In this document: piece after piece, positions 12,153-17,358 of the stretch
How the letters are laid out: each line of letters opens with the position of its first letter
How positions within the stretch are numbered: position 1 is the stretch's first letter
Notes under the pieces: model-generated
What the model was told of the DNA's origin: nothing
What the model saw: the letters and a program-made list of their open reading frames with translations, nothing else
Databases searched by the model: none
Origin: a virus
Taxonomy: Duplodnaviria; Heunggongvirae; Uroviricota; Caudoviricetes
IMG/VR virus record: IMGVR_UViG_2913177423_000001
Span: 19,415-83,414 of that record
Length of the DNA stretch: 64,000 nt
Direction: 5' to 3' (one strand)
Translations under genes and position numbers: made by a program

Positions 12153-12184
12153 TAATTTTCTAACTTTAGATAATTGGCATTATT
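12153..12184. other. rox: rox/lox-like recombination site (14-bp inverted arms, 4-bp spacer)
   Basis: TAACTTTAGATAAT-TGGC-ATTATTTAAAGTTA; arms are inverted repeats with one mismatch; 160 bp upstream of recombinase gene. Confidence 0.7.
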
Positions 12185-12344
12185 TAAAGTTAGTATATAA
12201 TAATGATCAAACGATCAGTATTGACAGACTCAAAAAGTCATGGTTCGAATCAAGGGCTTAAATTTTAAATTCTCACGGATAACTAGCCTGTCATTTTTTG
12301 TTTTTTCGCGTAGCGACACCAATTTATAGAGGTGAAATGATTAC

Positions 12345-13373
12345 ATGAGTAAACTTATTATCTCCGGTAATCCTGGCATGTTTCTTCGTGATATTGGTGC
12401 TGAGTACCAGGAAGCCGCCAAAAATTTCATGCAGTTCCTTAATGACCAGGGCGCTTACTCACCTAATACACTGCGCGATCTGCGCCTGGTCTTTCACTCC
12501 TGGGCGCGTTGGTGCCACGCTCGTGGTCTTGCGTGGTTTCCGATCTCCCCGGAAGCTGCCCGCGAATACCTGCTTCAACTGCATGATGCGGATCTGGCTT
12601 CAACCACCATTGAAAAGCATTACGCCATGCTCAATATGCTGTTGTCACAATGCGGACTGCCGCAACTCTCTGATGACAAAAGCGTATCCCTGGCGATGCG
12701 GCGCATCCGGCGCGAAGCTGCAACCGAAAAAGGCGAACGCACAGGCCAGGCTATACCGTTGCGGTGGAATGATCTGAAATGGCTCGACGTGTTGCTGTCC
12801 CGTTCCGAGCGGCTGGTGGACCTGCGCAACCGGGCGTTTCTCTTCGTGGCATACAATACCCTGTTGCGTATGGCTGAAATGTCCCGCGTGCGTGTTCGCG
12901 ATCTGGAACAGACTGGTGACACTGTAACGCTTCACGTATCCCACACCAAAACCATCACGACCGCCGCCGGACTTGATAAGGTGCTCTCCCTCCGGACAAC
13001 TGCGGTTCTCAATGACTGGCTGGACGAGTCCGGACTACGTGATCACCCGGATGCGATACTTTTCCCGCCAGTACACCGGAGCAACAAAGCGCGGATCACC
13101 ACCACGCCACTAACCGCGCCCGCGATGGAGAAGATTTTCAGTGACGCCTGGGCGCTGCTGGGTAAGAGTGATGCCACCCCAAATAAAGGCCGTTACCGGA
13201 CGTGGACAGGCCACAGTGCGCGTGTTGGTGCCGCCATAGATATGGCTGAAAAACAGGTGTCTTTGGTTGAAATTATGCAGGAAGGTACATGGAAGAAGCC
13301 CGAAACACTGATGCGTTATCTTCGTCGTGGCGGTGTGACAGCAGGTGCCAATAGCCGCCTCATGGATTCATGA
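12345..13373 (+). CDS. dre: Cre-family tyrosine site-specific recombinase (Dre-like)
   Basis: 342 aa; blocks SWARWCHARGLAWFP, VSLAMRRIRRE, AYNTLLRMAEMSRVRVRDL, WTGHSARVGAAIDMA align with P1 Cre; cognate site upstream. Confidence 0.9.
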   Translation: MSKLIISGNPGMFLRDIGAEYQEAAKNFMQFLNDQGAYSPNTLRDLRLVFHSWARWCHARGLAWFPISPEAAREYLLQLHDADLASTTIEKHYAMLNMLLSQCGLPQLSDDKSVSLAMRRIRREAATEKGERTGQAIPLRWNDLKWLDVLLSRSERLVDLRNRAFLFVAYNTLLRMAEMSRVRVRDLEQTGDTVTLHVSHTKTITTAAGLDKVLSLRTTAVLNDWLDESGLRDHPDAILFPPVHRSNKARITTTPLTAPAMEKIFSDAWALLGKSDATPNKGRYRTWTGHSARVGAAIDMAEKQVSLVEIMQEGTWKKPETLMRYLRRGGVTAGANSRLMDS

Positions 13374-13374
13374 G

Positions 13375-13394
13375 ATTAAATTTCTAACACACCT
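13375..13394 (-). promoter_or_regulatory. operator-like motif (rc GGTGTGTTAGAAATTTAATC)
   Basis: motif copy 2 nt after recombinase stop. Confidence 0.5.
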
Positions 13395-13447
13395 TTTTAG
13401 ATTGTTATCTTTGCTGTAAAGTACCCTCTCCTATTTCGGAGGGTGCT

Positions 13448-13792
13448 TTGCAGAGTCAAATCACGGAATCAAGACGCTTTAAGGTTGATGGTTACACCGT
13501 AACCTTCGCCGCTGGTGTTAAGAACAGTCATGCTGTCGTTGTATTTGGCATCATGACCGGACTTGAGGCCGTCCCTGTGTTTACCCTCGAAAAAAACTGG
13601 CGAAATCTGGAGGAAGCGGAAAGCTACGTCCGGAGAGTAACCATCGCTGCCGCCGAAAAACTCCTGTCCCACTATCAGGAAAATTATCGCACTATGGTCG
13701 AGAAGATTAATCTCGCTTTCACTCGCCCCACTACAGGCTTTATCGCCCCGGAGACTAATGCAGGTCGCTATCCTGCAAGGGGGCGTCGGTGA
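13448..13792 (+). CDS. hypothetical protein (114 aa), first gene of accessory operon
   Basis: TTG start after GGAGGG RBS; 4-nt overlap with next ORF. Confidence 0.4.
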   Translation: MQSQITESRRFKVDGYTVTFAAGVKNSHAVVVFGIMTGLEAVPVFTLEKNWRNLEEAESYVRRVTIAAAEKLLSHYQENYRTMVEKINLAFTRPTTGFIAPETNAGRYPARGRR

Positions 13793-14265
13793 AAAATTAT
13801 TACCCATCTCTGAATTGTTACCCGTCTTCGTATCCGGAATTGTCCGGGAAGCTGTTAGCTCTATTGGCTAAATCACCAACTGAATGGTTTAGGCCAGTCG
13901 TTATCAATCCGCACTTCCTGGATTACGGATCTGTTCGCACTCGTAACGAACTCAAAAACCTGCTGGCGCATGGATTCATTCGACATCGCGCCGGGAAAGG
14001 CTATCAGTTAGCGATTGCGCCAGAAGAGGCCGTGCGGCTATTCGCATATCGTGACAGCCAGACAAAAGCGCGGGTAATAGCTCAAATACTTCATAACGGC
14101 AGCACCTATGCCCGCCAGTTTGGCGGCGACACGTCGCAGTTCTTGCGGGCTGTGCGATCGCTGGAAGAACAAGGAGTTATTGAAAGTTCCTGTCTTCCTG
14201 TTCCTACCGTTCCACATATCAAACGTCGGGTTTACACCTTCACGCAGAGAGCAAAAAAACAATGA
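13789..14265 (+). CDS. hypothetical protein, possible winged-helix DNA-binding
   Basis: ATG overlapping upstream stop; segment LAIAPEEAVRLFAYRDSQTKARVIAQIL is wHTH-like (weak). Confidence 0.5.
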   Translation: MKNYYPSLNCYPSSYPELSGKLLALLAKSPTEWFRPVVINPHFLDYGSVRTRNELKNLLAHGFIRHRAGKGYQLAIAPEEAVRLFAYRDSQTKARVIAQILHNGSTYARQFGGDTSQFLRAVRSLEEQGVIESSCLPVPTVPHIKRRVYTFTQRAKKQ

Positions 14266-14756
14266 TTTACGTAAAAGTGAAACGCCTACATCCGGCAGCG
14301 AAACTTCCAGCTTATGCCACTGCCGGATCGGCGGCGATGGATTTTGAGGCTGTTGAAATAACACCGTGCGTCGATAGCAATGGTGCAATTTCCTCAAGCT
14401 GGTGGGTGCATACCGGGCTGGCTATGGAGATCCCGCCCGGCTGGTGTCTGAAACTCTATCCGCGTTCCGGATTGGGCTGCAAAAAACATACTCGCCTGGC
14501 TAACTGTGTAGGAATTATCGACTCCGATTATCGCGGTGAAATCATGGCAAAACTGATTACTGATCCCGGCGGTGAAGGCGTTTGCCTCAAGCCAGGAATG
14601 GCGGTCATGCAAGGCATTTTTGAGCGTGTTGAACAAGTCTCTCTTGTCGAAGTTGAGGAACTCAACGAAACGGAACGTGGTGCTGGTGGCTTTGGTAGCA
14701 CATCAGAAGGCCGCTTTGAAATTAAGCGTTCACCGCTTCAGTACGAAAAGTTATAA
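14262..14756 (+). CDS. dut: dUTP diphosphatase (dUTPase)
   Basis: dUTPase motifs PRSGL, GIIDSDYRGE, RGAGGFGSTSE. Confidence 0.85.
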   Translation: MIYVKVKRLHPAAKLPAYATAGSAAMDFEAVEITPCVDSNGAISSSWWVHTGLAMEIPPGWCLKLYPRSGLGCKKHTRLANCVGIIDSDYRGEIMAKLITDPGGEGVCLKPGMAVMQGIFERVEQVSLVEVEELNETERGAGGFGSTSEGRFEIKRSPLQYEKL

Positions 14757-14770
14757 GCAGAGGGACAACT

Positions 14771-15457
14771 ATGAAGGAAAAGCTTTTGAAGACGCTCCCT
14801 GAGTACAAATACCACGGAACCATTCGCGCATCGAAAATCAAAAAGATCAAGCCTATTGGCGGATTAATTCCTCTCTGGGGTGATATTGAGGTCACCGAAC
14901 CAAAAGGGGTAACGATTCGTGTTGATTTAATGTTTTTACAAAAATACCGACCACAAATTGGCGGGTATTTGGTCGTTCATGAGGACGGATATTTGTCCTA
15001 TTTATCAGAAAAAACATTTAAAGAGGGCTTTAGTCGAATTGATGACATCTCAGAAAATGAAACAACAGTCATCATTGCCGATGACAAAGGCATGATGATT
15101 AATCTTGCCGGGATCGTATCTATTTATGCTGATGACATCACTAACCAACAAGAAGAAATCGACCTTGAGGCAGCCGACTTTTCTGACGCGCTGATGTGGC
15201 TGAAGGATGGCAAGAAAGTTGCTCGACGCGGGTGGAACGGCGAAAACCAATTCTGCTGGCTGGTTCCTGACAAACAGGGCGCTTCAAGACTAACCCCTAT
15301 AAAACATGCCGCAAGCGGAGAGCTTGAAATCAATTTCGGCTCGCCCCTTGCTCCTTATGGAGAGCATTTCACTTTGAAAAATGCACAAGGTGTCTTTCTT
15401 CCGTGGCTACCTTCTGTCGGCGACCTGCTGGCATGTGACTGGTTTGTAGTGGAGTGA
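14771..15457 (+). CDS. DUF2829 (Tad2-like) domain protein with 130-aa N-terminal extension
   Basis: C-terminal DFSDALMWLKDGKKVARRGWNG ... VFLPWLPSVGDLLACDWFVVE matches DUF2829 signature as recalled. Confidence 0.6.
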   Translation: MKEKLLKTLPEYKYHGTIRASKIKKIKPIGGLIPLWGDIEVTEPKGVTIRVDLMFLQKYRPQIGGYLVVHEDGYLSYLSEKTFKEGFSRIDDISENETTVIIADDKGMMINLAGIVSIYADDITNQQEEIDLEAADFSDALMWLKDGKKVARRGWNGENQFCWLVPDKQGASRLTPIKHAASGELEINFGSPLAPYGEHFTLKNAQGVFLPWLPSVGDLLACDWFVVE

Positions 15458-15463
15458 TTTGAC

Positions 15464-16237
15464 ATGGAAAGCACCAAAACAACTCAATACCGCTTGCGTA
15501 ATGGCCTGCTGGTGGCTGTTAACGCCGACATGTCACTGCCGTTTGACACGATAGAACGCACTATCATGACGTATCTCGGCTTTAATGAAGAGCTGAATGA
15601 AGAGCATGGCGTAGCTATATGGAGTGATGCAGACAGCGGCGTTCGTCGTTACATCACTGCCAGAGGCAAAGACTACTCTCTGGAAGAACTGTTTACCCTT
15701 GCGCAGTCTTTCGAATGTGTAGCATTGGACCTGTTTAATGATCCTGCTATAGCGCAACGACTTATCCGCGAGCTTGGGCTGTCGGTTACCCCAATTATCT
15801 TTAAAAATGGCAGCCTGACTGGCACATGGCGCGTAGAGCGCATCTCAAACTACCTTCCATATAACCGCCAGTTAAACGGGGTAATTTCCGGCGTCAATCA
15901 GCCTGTAGCGTGTGAAAACGCAAACCTGGTTGTCGCTGTTTTGGCAACTGCATGTCGCGTTATTGGTTTGACTAAACAGGCATTTATCCATTTTCCCAAT
16001 GGTGCAGAAGGTGGCGTAGAAATTATCGCGTGTGATTTCGAATTTACCTGGATGCTTCGTGAATATCTGGACCGAACAGTGTTCCGCGCCGAAGAACTGG
16101 ATCTGTATATCACGTCAACGATTCCTGATGATGTGCGAGCTGAAGCAATCGCTACAGCCAGAGCGAAATGCCGTGCGTCGATTGCAGAACAAGCCAAAGA
16201 AGAAGTTACAGTTAAGGAAGTGGCAGATGGTAACTAA
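15464..16237 (+). CDS. hypothetical protein (257 aa), translationally coupled to terminase paralog
   Basis: stop overlaps downstream start; no recognised domain. Confidence 0.55.
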   Translation: MESTKTTQYRLRNGLLVAVNADMSLPFDTIERTIMTYLGFNEELNEEHGVAIWSDADSGVRRYITARGKDYSLEELFTLAQSFECVALDLFNDPAIAQRLIRELGLSVTPIIFKNGSLTGTWRVERISNYLPYNRQLNGVISGVNQPVACENANLVVAVLATACRVIGLTKQAFIHFPNGAEGGVEIIACDFEFTWMLREYLDRTVFRAEELDLYITSTIPDDVRAEAIATARAKCRASIAEQAKEEVTVKEVADGN

Positions 16238-17321
16238 GAGCAATATTTATAAAGATCCGCGCTGGCTGTCGCTGGTGGAGAAATATAAAGACAATTGGGT
16301 ACTGGCAGCAAAAGAATTGTTTGATATTGATTTAAGCCACCAGCAACAACAAATTGTTGAAGCTATACAGCCCAATAATGCAAAAGCTACTGTCACCACT
16401 CCGCATGGGATCGGACGACCGCAAGTGCTTGCTGTTATTAGTACCCTTTATACGATTATGTATCCTGATTCCCGGACAGTAATTGTTTATCCAAAATCAA
16501 ATGCTTGCAAAAGAGGAATTGTTGCATATGTGTGGCAATGTTGGGAGGCATTGCTGAAAAAACAACCTTTTATCATTGAGTATTTTAAGGTCGGTGATAG
16601 CGGTCTGATGTTCAATGAATTTTGGGGAATGTGCTTTTGTAACTACCGCCTTAACTATGAAGATAGCATTGCAGGTCACTACGCCGACCATCTTTTATTC
16701 ATTATTGTGGATTCCGCACATATCAGCGATCGGGCATACAGTATTGTGTGGGCAAGCATGACTAGTGGTGATTCACGCATATTGCTCACTTCAATTCCGT
16801 CACCAGAGGAAATAGGCTTTTTTTATGATTCACATCATGGACGTGCTTTAGCTGAAGATAATCCGAGTGGTGTCTATAAAGCCATTAAGCTGAGTGCTGA
16901 GGATTCACCATTTATTACCCAAGAATATCTTGATCATTTTGCCGAAAGGTATGGCGGGCGAAATAGTGATGACTATCGTCGTATGATTCTTGGTGAGTTC
17001 CCTGGTATTAGGGAGGCTGTTCTTGAATCAGATATGCCGAAGACAATGCGCTTTTCGATGCCTGATGGTAGTGAATGGACAATGCCATTACGAGTGATAG
17101 CCCGGCATCATGCGCAGCACCACGCCAAAAAACATAGCGTCACGACATTAGAATGGTTGAAATCGCACACTATTCCACTCTTCACTGCAGATCACAATGC
17201 TATCGTTGAGTGGGCCAAAACAATTCCGTGGGAGCATGTCGCTGAATACGCTCACATGCTAAAACCGCCGAAAGACAGACACGAAATTAGCTGGCTGACA
17301 GCCGAAAAAATCATTGAATGA
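16227..17321 (+). CDS. degenerate terminase large-subunit ATPase-domain paralog
   Basis: homologous to PacB-like N-terminus (DPRW..QQQ..; YFYDSHH..DNP.G..SPF..YGGR) but Walker A is PHGIGRPQ, Walker B is FIIVDSAH (no Asp-Glu), no nuclease domain; start moved to ATG 16227. Confidence 0.6.
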   Translation: MVTKSNIYKDPRWLSLVEKYKDNWVLAAKELFDIDLSHQQQQIVEAIQPNNAKATVTTPHGIGRPQVLAVISTLYTIMYPDSRTVIVYPKSNACKRGIVAYVWQCWEALLKKQPFIIEYFKVGDSGLMFNEFWGMCFCNYRLNYEDSIAGHYADHLLFIIVDSAHISDRAYSIVWASMTSGDSRILLTSIPSPEEIGFFYDSHHGRALAEDNPSGVYKAIKLSAEDSPFITQEYLDHFAERYGGRNSDDYRRMILGEFPGIREAVLESDMPKTMRFSMPDGSEWTMPLRVIARHHAQHHAKKHSVTTLEWLKSHTIPLFTADHNAIVEWAKTIPWEHVAEYAHMLKPPKDRHEISWLTAEKIIE

Positions 17322-17330
17322 TATCAACAA

Positions 17331-17358
17331 AAAGCCCGCCTGGTCTGGCGGGCTTCTT
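17331..17358. terminator. bidirectional intrinsic terminator
   Basis: hairpin AAAGCCCGCC-TGGTCT-GGCGGGCTT plus T-run, between convergent genes. Confidence 0.7.

What the first reader, a model, noticed from the sequence alone, without database searches (positions are those of the whole stretch)
14771..15457. DUF2829/Tad2-like domain fused to a novel N-terminal domain
The C-terminal 95 residues (DALMWLKDGKKVARRGWNG ... LPWLPSVGDLLACDWFVVE) match my recollection of DUF2829, the family that includes the Thoeris anti-defense protein Tad2. Here it is fused to an uncharacterised 130-aa domain, which is atypical for the roughly 90-aa stand-alone proteins.
Basis: partly seen in the sequence, partly recalled or inferred. 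Interest (0 to 1): 0.65.

Follow-up and report, generated by a model that had tools for sequence, protein, structure and literature searches.

The report
Tad2 sponge with Dec-like head
This plasmid-prophage gene joins a Tad2 domain, known to soak up bacterial alarm molecules, to an N-terminal domain that is not new but related to a phage capsid-decoration protein, and that domain turns out to sit beside five different alarm-sponge families, making it a testable candidate for a new anti-immunity module.

Summary
The ORF (14771-15457, +, 228 aa) is real. Its C-terminal ~100 residues are a clear Tad2/DUF2829 domain: Pfam PF11195 scores 74 bits against a cutoff of 25, solved Tad2 structures are the top sequence and fold hits, and the core ADPR-contact residues W155/N156/W212/S215/D218 are conserved.

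The fusion is already annotated ("DUF2829 domain-containing protein"). It occurs in 188 of 5,426 complete E. coli genomes, almost always on D6/P1-like plasmid prophages. A 2025 sponge survey deliberately filtered out such proteins, so they remain untested.

What I add: the OB domain belongs to a family of more than 1,000 clusters. It is often a stand-alone ~90-aa phage protein and sits N-terminal to five verified sponge families (Tad2, Sequestin, Acb4, Acb2/Tad1, Lockin).

Most likely this is a counter-defence protein whose Tad2 half sequesters a TIR/Thoeris ADPR-derived signal. The OB head may be a second binding module or a tether; this is unresolved. I rate it a new variant of a known kind, of moderate interest.

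The parts
14771..15457 (+). Complete ORF (228 aa plus stop): Dec-like OB domain, linker, Tad2 domain
   Evidence: ORF list. phrog_872 covers residues 4-228 at E=2e-43. Full-length homologues at 35-96% identity.
14760..14765 (+). Shine-Dalgarno-like GAGGGA, 5 nt upstream of the ATG
   Evidence: Read directly from the sequence.
14792..15040 (+). Residues 8-90: OB-fold domain homologous to the phage L Dec OB domain
15041..15157 (+). Residues 91-129: variable linker with short beta-strand repeats (TTVIIADDKGMMINLAGIVSIYADD) that aligns to the start of Dec's trimeric spike
   Evidence: The A2 profile alignment extends to Dec residue 121. pLDDT is 43-54 in the monomer model. In relatives the segment is replaced by helical segments, extra domains, or nothing.
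15158..15454 (+). Residues 130-228: Tad2/DUF2829 domain
   Evidence: PF11195, 74.4 bits. Foldseek to 8WJE, 9EIB, 8SMF and others at E~2e-6, target TM 0.74-0.86.
15233..15241 (+). W155-N156-G157: beta1-beta2 loop ADPR-contact motif (SPO1 W25/N26; HgmTad2 W21/N22/G23)
   Evidence: Alignments. Contact residues from papers read. W155 is invariant in 39 homologues.
15266..15361 (+). Residues 166-197: hypervariable insertion between beta2 and beta3 of the Tad2 domain
   Evidence: Low pLDDT. Mean pairwise identity 0.28. Corresponds to the insertion that builds the second pocket in HgmTad2/SptTad2, but those pocket residues are not conserved here.
15404..15424 (+). W212-L-P-S215-V-G-D218: second half of the ADPR pocket (SPO1 W73/S76/D79; HgmTad2 W87/S90/D93)
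   Evidence: W212, P214, S215 and D218 are invariant in 39 homologues.
12345..17355 (+). Tightly packed same-strand gene block containing the ORF: Dre-like recombinase (12345-13373), two unknowns, dUTPase (14262-14756), this gene, isaA-like ORF (15464-16237), phrog_5902 ORF (16227-17321), then a strong intrinsic terminator (17332-17355)
   Evidence: Gaps or overlaps between genes are at most 75 nt. The same order is annotated in D6 and in E. coli plasmids.

Best explanation
The gene encodes a two-module counter-defence protein of a D6-like plasmid prophage.

Shown: the C-terminal domain is a Tad2-family domain with the conserved ADPR pocket.

Inferred from the characterised family: it assembles as a homotetramer and sequesters an ADPR-derived signal made by TIR (Thoeris-type) defence proteins. 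The candidates are 3'cADPR/2'cADPR, His-ADPR or N7-cADPR, and the exact ligand is not predictable. Sequestration keeps the host effector from being activated.

Shown: the N-terminal domain is a Dec-like OB-fold from a large phage family. That family occurs alone or at the N-terminus of proteins carrying five different verified sponge domains.

Inferred, less certain: the OB head adds a second binding activity to the sponge. This could be a second small-molecule pocket, giving a dual sponge like the tested Acb4-Tad2 fusion, or binding to a protein partner.

The gene lies outside the structural modules, in an accessory block next to the recombinase and dUTPase. That fits an intracellular role rather than a virion role.
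For: Tad2 identity:
- PF11195 at E=1.1e-20; PDB sequence hits to ModTad2, SptTad2, SPO1 Tad2 and HgmTad2.
- Foldseek E~2e-6, target TM 0.74-0.86.
- All five core contacts are conserved and invariant in the family: W155, N156, W212, S215, D218.

Topology precedent:
- Pm86 ORF47 (Acb4 N-terminal, Tad2 C-terminal, 185 aa) blocks both Thoeris I and CBASS I (10.1101/2025.07.12.664507).

OB head:
- Dec homology.
- 1,049 representatives; of the top 148, 53 are stand-alone (110 aa or shorter).
- 17 Pfam partner-domain matches among the top 148 are to sponge families: Sequestin 9, Tad2 4, Acb4 2, Acb2/Tad1 2. The only other Pfam match is a borderline DUF7130 hit.
- An OB+Acb4+Lockin protein is listed in the Lockin homologue table.
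- Sister Lastavirus phages keep the same OB head in the same early slot but swap Tad2 for Sequestin.

Context:
- The gene sits in the dre-dut accessory block.
- The SopranoGao homologue is the second gene of an operon beside divergent regulators.
- Stand-alone OB genes lie in moron or accessory regions.
Against: - There is no experimental test of this protein or of any OB-Tad2 fusion; such proteins were excluded from the 2025 survey.
- The base-facing pocket residues differ from SPO1/HgmTad2 (N204, Q206, L210, G217 in place of T65, D67, H71, T78). The ligand is therefore uncertain, and binding itself is inferred.
- The oligomeric state could not be modelled. A trimeric Dec-like spike and a tetrameric Tad2 would be symmetry-mismatched.
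- The OB domain's closest characterised relative binds capsids, not nucleotides.
- The window allele departs from the OB family signature at 5 of 24 strongly conserved positions.
- D6 itself carries an N-truncated copy, and dut-Tad2 fusions lack the OB domain. The OB head is therefore dispensable for retention of the Tad2 half.
- Expression timing is inferred only from gene position.
Confidence: 0.72

Rival explanations
1. The OB head has no ligand of its own. It is a passive scaffold for folding, solubility or oligomerisation that phages reuse at the N-terminus of sponge cassettes. The protein would then be a single-specificity Tad2 sponge.
For: - The OB domain is N-terminal in every protein where its fusion partner is a recognised sponge family.
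- Linkers are freely exchangeable.
- Tad2-only derivatives persist at the same locus (D6 orf114, dut-Tad2 P0058).
- The structure-guided sponge screen did not report an OB family.
Against: - 53 of the top 148 representatives are stand-alone proteins of ~90 aa, which a mere scaffold would not explain.
- 24 positions, many of them polar or aromatic (H, K, Y, D, Y, S, S, E, Y), are at least 85% conserved across phages of very different hosts.
- Known sponges oligomerise on their own and need no scaffold.
Confidence: 0.3
2. It is a capsid decoration protein like Dec. The OB domain and spike-like linker bind the D6-like capsid as trimers. The Tad2-like domain is either displayed on the virion, or tethered to assembling capsids inside the cell where capsid-sensing TIR proteins fire.
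For: - Homology to Dec covers both the OB fold and the first part of the spike.
- Low monomer pLDDT in the linker mirrors Dec, whose spike orders only on trimerisation.
- The hypervariable middle of the OB domain coincides with Dec's main capsid-contact site.
- Some depositors annotate homologues as 'capsid decoration protein'.
Against: - The gene lies in an accessory block beside dre and dut, not among the head genes. In SopranoGao and LASTA it is an immunity-proximal operon gene.
- Only 1 of 5 Dec capsid-contact residues is conserved (K30->K27; Y31->P28, Y49->R50, Y71->D72, E73->Y74).
- The spike-like linker is absent or replaced in many homologues (P0070, P0055), and Dec without its spike does not bind capsids.
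- The GP4 stand-alone homologue is not seen in the 3.7 A capsid map.
- The P1 virion proteome found no decoration protein.
- The same conserved OB signature occurs in phages with unrelated capsids.
Confidence: 0.08
3. The DUF2829 domain acts as an anti-CRISPR, as was first proposed for AcrIIA7, rather than as a signal sponge.
For: AcrIIA7/HgmTad2 is a significant PDB hit (8KBI and 9KZR, E~1e-6).
Against: - Li et al. could not reproduce any Cas9 inhibition by HgmTad2 or its homologues and showed that it is a gcADPR/cGG sponge.
- E. coli lacks type II-A CRISPR (my own knowledge, not tested here).
- The ADPR pocket is conserved here.
Confidence: 0.02

Closest known systems
Tad2 (Thoeris anti-defence 2; Pfam PF11195/DUF2829): SPO1 gp34.65, MoTad2, HgmTad2/AcrIIA7, SptTad2
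   Same: The C-terminal 100 residues share the fold (helix alpha1 plus an antiparallel sheet). They also share the W-N-G and W-x-P-S-x-x-D ADPR-contact motifs. Best identity to a solved member is ~35% (MoTad2).
   Different: - Characterised members are stand-alone proteins of 88-104 aa; this one carries a 130-residue N-terminal extension.
- The base-facing residues differ.
- The beta2-beta3 insertion is 32 aa and hypervariable.
- The HgmTad2 cyclic-dinucleotide pocket residues (R31, S47, N85) are not conserved.
Sponge-sponge fusion proteins (Acb4-Tad2 of Pasteurella phage Pm86; Tad2-Sequestin; Sequestin-Acb4) described by Tal et al. 2025 (10.1101/2025.07.12.664507)
   Same: The topology is the same: partner domain, linker, C-terminal Tad2. 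The partner also exists as a small stand-alone phage protein and is fused to several sponge families. The genes sit in accessory regions.
   Different: The partner here (the Dec-like OB domain) has no demonstrated ligand and is not one of the named sponge families. Proteins carrying it were filtered out of the functional survey.
Phage L decoration protein Dec (PDB 6E3C)
   Different: - Dec ends in a trimeric spike and is a virion protein. This protein ends in a Tad2 domain and is encoded outside the head module.
- 4 of 5 Dec capsid-contact residues are not conserved.
- Dec lacks the family's Y-x-D-G-Y-x-S-x-S-P signature.
PHROG families phrog_872 (full length) and phrog_11049 (OB part)
   Same: The protein matches phrog_872 end to end (E=2e-43), so the architecture is already a recognised phage protein family.
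   Different: Both PHROGs are annotated 'unknown function'.

Membership tests
Tad2 / PF11195 (DUF2829) | Significant match to the Pfam model above its gathering threshold | tested here: met
   74.4 bits against a cutoff of 25, E=1.1e-20, residues 136-227 covering model positions 2-73 of 73.
Tad2 / PF11195 (DUF2829) | Tad2 fold (N-terminal helix plus antiparallel beta-sheet with extended loops) | tested here: met
   The 24 best Foldseek PDB hits are all Tad2 structures: E=2e-6 to 1e-4, target TM 0.61-0.86. Core pLDDT is 75-91.
Tad2 / PF11195 (DUF2829) | Conserved ADPR-pocket residues (SPO1 W25, N26, W73, S76, D79; HgmTad2 W21, N22, G23, W87, S90, D93) | tested here: met
   W155, N156, G157, W212, S215 and D218 are all present. 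The base-side residues T65, D67, H71 and T78 are replaced by N204, Q206, L210 and G217.
Tad2 / PF11195 (DUF2829) | Homotetramer, with pockets formed between protomers | not testable with these tools
   Only monomer AlphaFold2 was available.
Tad2 / PF11195 (DUF2829) | Binds and sequesters a TIR-derived signal and relieves Thoeris defence | not testable with these tools
   Requires biochemistry and phage assays.
HgmTad2/SptTad2-type dual sponges (second cyclic-dinucleotide pocket) | Pocket residues R31, S47, F70 and N85 in a long beta2-beta5 insertion | tested here: not met
   The mapping gives V165, H179, Y196 and a gap. Only the aromatic residue is retained, although the insertion is long at 32 aa. 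The alignment inside the insertion is of low confidence.
Phage L Dec-type capsid decoration protein | Dec-like OB-fold domain | tested here: met
Phage L Dec-type capsid decoration protein | C-terminal trimerising spike (Dec residues ~90-134), which is essential for capsid binding | tested here: inconclusive
   The linker, residues 93-125, aligns to Dec 88-121. It is shorter than the spike, has low confidence, and is followed by Tad2. Many homologues lack it.
Phage L Dec-type capsid decoration protein | Capsid-contact residues K30, Y31, Y49, Y71, E73 | tested here: not met
   These map to K27, P28, R50, D72 and Y74, so 1 of 5 is conserved. The capsid here is unrelated to that of phage L/P22, so conservation was not strictly expected.
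Phage L Dec-type capsid decoration protein | Encoded with late or head genes and present in virions | tested here: not met
   The gene lies in the dre-dut accessory block. Its Lastavirus homologues are in an immunity-proximal operon. Virion presence itself could not be tested.
Multi-sponge fusion proteins (Tal et al. 2025) | The partner domain also occurs as a short stand-alone phage protein | tested here: met
   53 of the top 148 representatives are 110 aa or shorter. Stand-alone copies occur in GP4, Dewey and others.
Multi-sponge fusion proteins (Tal et al. 2025) | The partner domain is fused to several independent sponge families | tested here: met
   Tad2, Sequestin, Acb4, Acb2/Tad1-hairpin and Lockin.
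Multi-sponge fusion proteins (Tal et al. 2025) | The partner domain itself binds an immune signal | not testable with these tools
   No paper in the searchable library describes it. Motif probes did not find the family among the 124 candidates tested in Table S2.

The most novel reading that the evidence does not exclude
The Dec-like OB domain is itself an uncharacterised anti-defence module. It would be either a further family of immune-signal sponge, or a protein-binding head that targets sponges to where signals are made. This would make the window protein a dual-function inhibitor. It would also imply that phage L's capsid decoration protein Dec and this family of more than 1,000 clusters share an origin, one having been exapted from the other.
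Probability: 0.35. Interest if true: 0.75.

Novelty: new variant of a known kind. Interest (0 to 1): 0.5.

Why it matters
Signal sponges are a main route by which phages disarm Thoeris, CBASS and Pycsar. Two new families (Sequestin and Lockin) were found only in 2025, and Sequestin was found through its fusions to known sponges. The same reasoning applied here points to an abundant OB-fold domain that heads multi-sponge proteins and has not been tested. If it is active, it would:
- add a new counter-defence module;
- explain a widespread gene of E. coli and Salmonella phage-plasmids, which are vehicles of resistance genes;
- link a capsid decoration fold to immune evasion.

If it is only a scaffold, the gene is simply one more Tad2 sponge.

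Tried and rejected
- **Pfam on the N-domain.** Nothing credible at E<=1. Pfam on the four neighbouring ORFs also gave nothing.
- **Lockin as the identity of the OB domain.** Rejected. Lockin is described as a curved beta-rich hexamer reported absent from INPHARED. This domain is present in INPHARED phages, and its only significant PDB match is Dec.
- **TadIV-1 and the RyR-like Tad as identities.** Nothing in their abstracts or outlines links them to an OB or Dec-like domain, and the only significant PDB matches of the OB model are Dec and generic OB folds.
- **The GP4 stand-alone homologue as the GP4 cement protein.** Rejected. The cement protein gp1 is a different, Ig-like 157-aa protein.
- **A P1-type C1 operator controlling the operon.** No match with up to 3 mismatches anywhere in the window.
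- **The single strong promoter-like hit.** It lies inside the rox site, so I do not rely on it.
- **MoTad2 His-ADPR contact residues.** Not listed in the accessible texts, so ligand specificity could not be narrowed.
- **HgmTad2-type cyclic-dinucleotide pocket.** Not conserved.
- **Literature on an OB-fold or Dec-like sponge partner.** None found.

Full report
**Observation.** The window has an ATG-initiated ORF at exactly 14771-15457 on the + strand, 228 aa. A GAGGGA ribosome-binding motif lies five bases upstream. Pfam PF11195 (now named "Tad2-like") matches residues 136-227 over essentially the whole model at E=1.1e-20, 74.4 bits against a cutoff of 25. A sequence search of the PDB returns only Tad2 proteins as significant hits: ModTad2 9EIB, Tad2 8V3E, SptTad2 8WJD, SPO1 gp34.65 8SME and HgmTad2/AcrIIA7 8KBI/9KZR, at E=4e-12 to 4e-6.

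**Context.** The window is part of a D6-like plasmid prophage of E. coli. pacB, pacA, c1 and the Dre recombinase gene lie upstream, and the region is 88-91% identical to phage D6 and to ~90-kb E. coli plasmids. The gene sits in a tightly packed same-strand block:
- Dre-like recombinase (12345-13373);
- two ORFs of unknown function (phrog_1968, phrog_6669);
- dUTPase (14262-14756);
- this gene;
- an isaA-like ORF (15464-16237);
- a phrog_5902 ORF (16227-17321);
- a strong intrinsic terminator at 17332-17355.

None of the four unknown neighbours has a Pfam match. The only strong promoter-like match lies inside the D6 rox site (12163-12194), so I do not lean on it. No P1-type C1 operator was found. 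RefSeq annotates the homologues as "DUF2829 domain-containing protein", and UniRef names some "Thoeris anti-defense Tad2 family protein". The family is in 188 of 5,426 complete E. coli genomes, with 187 of 193 places on plasmids. No complete genome has the window's allele above 86% DNA identity; a 96%-identical protein (P0001) exists in the large protein collection.

**The Tad2 half.** A full-length AlphaFold2 model built on 39 homologues has a confident Tad2 core. Its 24 best Foldseek PDB hits are all Tad2 structures, at E=2e-6 to 1e-4 with target TM 0.61-0.86. I took the ligand contacts from the papers:
- SPO1 Tad2: W25, N26, W73, D79, plus S76, T78, I63, T65, D67 and H71 (10.1101/2023.05.01.538930).
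- HgmTad2: W21, N22, G23, W87, L88, S90, T92 and D93 (10.1101/2023.11.15.567273).

I mapped them through the HMMER alignments. The core contacts are all present: W155, N156, G157, W212, L213, S215 and D218. Of these, W155, W212, P214, S215 and D218 are invariant across 39 homologues. The residues facing the base or co-ordinating waters differ: T65->N204, D67->Q206, H71->L210, T78/T92->G217. The second, cyclic-dinucleotide pocket of HgmTad2/SptTad2 (R31, S47, F70, N85) maps to V165, H179, Y196 and a gap, so it is not conserved. The window protein does have a long (32-aa), low-confidence, hypervariable insertion at that place. Tad2 homologues are now known to bind 3'cADPR, 2'cADPR, His-ADPR, N7-cADPR, cyclic dinucleotides and cUMP/cCMP (10.1101/2025.08.24.671296). 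I therefore commit only to "an ADPR-derived TIR signal", with the closest solved relative being the His-ADPR binder MoTad2 (~35% identity).

**The N-terminal half is not novel.**
- A single-sequence search gave a weak hit to the phage L decoration protein Dec (6E3C, E=0.18).
- A profile of 18 N-terminal regions raised this to E=1.8e-7 over residues 21-125 against Dec 23-121. That span covers the OB fold and the first part of Dec's C-terminal spike.
- Foldseek with the full model finds 6E3C right after the Tad2 hits (E=1.3e-3, probability 1.0).

The segment between the two domains (residues 91-129) has short beta repeats and low monomer confidence, as does Dec's spike, which orders only in the trimer (PMC6449081 and PMC11398494). 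Among homologues this linker is replaced by helical segments or extra domains, or is missing altogether. Only 1 of 5 Dec capsid-contact residues is conserved.

**The OB domain belongs to a large family with a telling set of partners.** An exhaustive phmmer search with residues 1-94 found 1,049 representative clusters at E<=1e-3. Among the best 148:
- 53 are stand-alone proteins of 110 aa or fewer;
- 58 have the domain at the N-terminus with a C-terminal extension;
- 11 have it at the C-terminus;
- a few are tandem OB-OB proteins.

Scanning all 148 against Pfam gave only five families: PF21825 crAss001_48 (9 members), PF11195 Tad2 (4), PF13876 Phage_gp49_66 (2), PF24729 Acb2/Tad1 hairpin (2) and one borderline DUF7130. 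Tal et al. (10.1101/2025.07.12.664507) show that PF21825 is the 3'cADPR sponge Sequestin, discovered precisely because it is fused to Tad2 and Acb4. They also show that PF13876 is Acb4, and that an Acb4-Tad2 fusion from phage Pm86 blocks both Thoeris I and CBASS I. In Pm86 the Tad2 domain is C-terminal, the same topology as here.

Individual architectures I verified:

| Architecture | Proteins |
|---|---|
| OB+Tad2 | P0176, P0264, SopranoGao_55 |
| OB+Tad2+Sequestin | P0063, P0085, P0090 |
| OB+Sequestin | P0262, P0187 |
| OB+Acb4 | P0169 |
| OB+Acb2/Tad1 hairpin | P0207 |
| OB+Sequestin+Acb4 | P0152 |

Their Lockin homologue table (Table S4) also holds a 374-aa protein. I show it to be OB (74 bits against my family HMM) + Acb4 (87 bits) + a Lockin-like domain that is 57% identical to the adjacent table entry. 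The OB head is therefore joined to five experimentally verified sponge families. In sister Lastavirus phages, the same OB head sits in the same immunity-proximal operon slot. It is followed by Tad2 in SopranoGao and by a middle domain plus Sequestin in LASTA. This amounts to a natural cassette swap.

**Has this been seen before?** Yes, but only in passing. [quoted passage not shown] Li et al. restricted their pocket analysis to short Tad2 versions. I found no paper in the searchable library that characterises the OB or Dec-like domain in this setting. Motif probes did not find the family among the 124 candidates of Tal et al.'s Table S2 (the probes are not exhaustive). Lockin, TadIV-1 and the RyR-like Tad are different folds or families.

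**What the OB head does is unresolved.**

For a binding module of its own (second sponge or partner binder):
- it is abundant as a stand-alone ~90-aa phage protein;
- it lies in accessory regions, such as the Dewey post-lysis moron block and the run of small genes in Dolphis;
- its recognisable partners are almost exclusively sponges;
- 24 positions are at least 85% conserved across very different phages, many of them polar or aromatic: H-K, G-G-Y, Y-x-D-G-Y-x-S-x-S-P, F-E-x-G-Y.

For a capsid-related role:
- the homology to Dec;
- the family's hypervariable middle (columns 24-55, conservation 0.27 against 0.66 and 0.73 for the flanks) coincides with Dec's principal capsid-contact site.

Against a capsid role:
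- the gene positions;
- the non-conserved contact residues;
- the dispensable spike-like linker, given that Dec's OB domain alone cannot bind capsids;
- the GP4 homologue is absent from the 3.7 A capsid map, which contains only the MCP and an Ig-like cement protein (PMC9698820);
- the P1 virion proteome detected no decoration protein (PMC9024508).

The window's own OB allele keeps 17 of the 24 signature positions, has 2 conservative changes, and differs at 5 (K->G16, Y->H70, S->L78, P->S79, E->K84).

**Evolution.** Within D6/P1-like plasmids the gene is a mosaic. OB, linker and insertion-loop alleles reassort independently, with identities to the window allele of 0.22-0.99, 0.03-0.97 and 0-1.0 respectively. 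The Tad2 alpha1-beta2 core stays at 0.58-1.0, with mean pairwise identity 0.80. Decayed or rearranged copies exist:
- D6 orf114 lacks the first ~67 residues;
- a dUTPase-Tad2 in-frame fusion lacks the OB domain (P0058);
- the RCS47 copy is split by IS1.

This pattern fits an arms-race accessory gene in which the Tad2 core is the constant element.

**Verdict.** The best-supported reading is a modular counter-defence protein. Its Tad2 half is a sponge for an ADPR-derived TIR signal: membership in the family is shown, ligand binding is inferred. Its Dec-like OB head is a recurrent partner of sponges whose own activity is unknown. The protein itself is a new variant of a known kind. The useful and testable lead is that the OB family, by the same guilt-by-fusion logic that uncovered Sequestin, may be a further anti-defence module.

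Noticed in passing
window 12163-12194: The D6 rox recombination site (taactttagataattggcattatttaaagtta) lies just upstream of the Dre-like tyrosine recombinase gene (12345-13373). The only strong sigma-70-like promoter match in the region (12174-12201, 11 of 12) lies inside it.
   Followed up: partly
L007:2489-3364 (Klebsiella phage LASTA_00052, residues ~110-200); also P0092, P0119, P0100, P0101, P0083, P0081, P0057: A ~90-aa middle domain (motif ...GEHYACKPDIFEATYEP) recurs next to Tad2 and Sequestin domains. It has no significant Pfam match; the only trace is a weak PGDYG PF14083 hit (E=0.023, below threshold) in P0057. It is another unnamed, recurrent partner of sponge domains.
   Followed up: partly
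P0058 (241 aa); L002:2594-3034 (D6 orf114); RCS47 15513-15950: The same locus shows rearranged copies: an in-frame dUTPase-Tad2 fusion that lacks the OB domain, an N-truncated copy in phage D6 itself, and a copy split by IS1 next to isaA in RCS47.
   Followed up: partly
homologues P0017, P0029, P0031, P0034-P0044 (alignment A1): One allele class in D6/P1-like plasmids has W-K instead of the W-N ADPR contact (REWKGEKQ...), together with a short insertion loop (VLAGSVNLHDIQVPYGDHF). This suggests a different ligand specificity.
   Followed up: no
BFVD A0A384WK77 (Vibrio phage vB_VpaS_KF6, 394 aa): The OB domain also occurs in a protein annotated as a MazG pyrophosphatase. This is a nucleotide-metabolising partner rather than a sponge.
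   Followed up: no
window 16227-17321: The last gene of the block (phrog_5902, 364 aa) has a weak terminase-large-subunit-like ATPase match (phrog_2, E=2.6e-9) but no Pfam family. Its function is unknown.
   Followed up: no
L004:4989-5264 (Ralstonia phage GP4, AXG67700.1): A stand-alone OB-family gene sits between the portal and major capsid genes, next to a CsrA-like 'carbon storage regulator' gene. The protein is not part of the published 3.7 A capsid structure.
   Followed up: partly
P0130, P0132, P0210: Tandem OB-OB proteins exist in the family, with two full OB domains in one chain.
   Followed up: no
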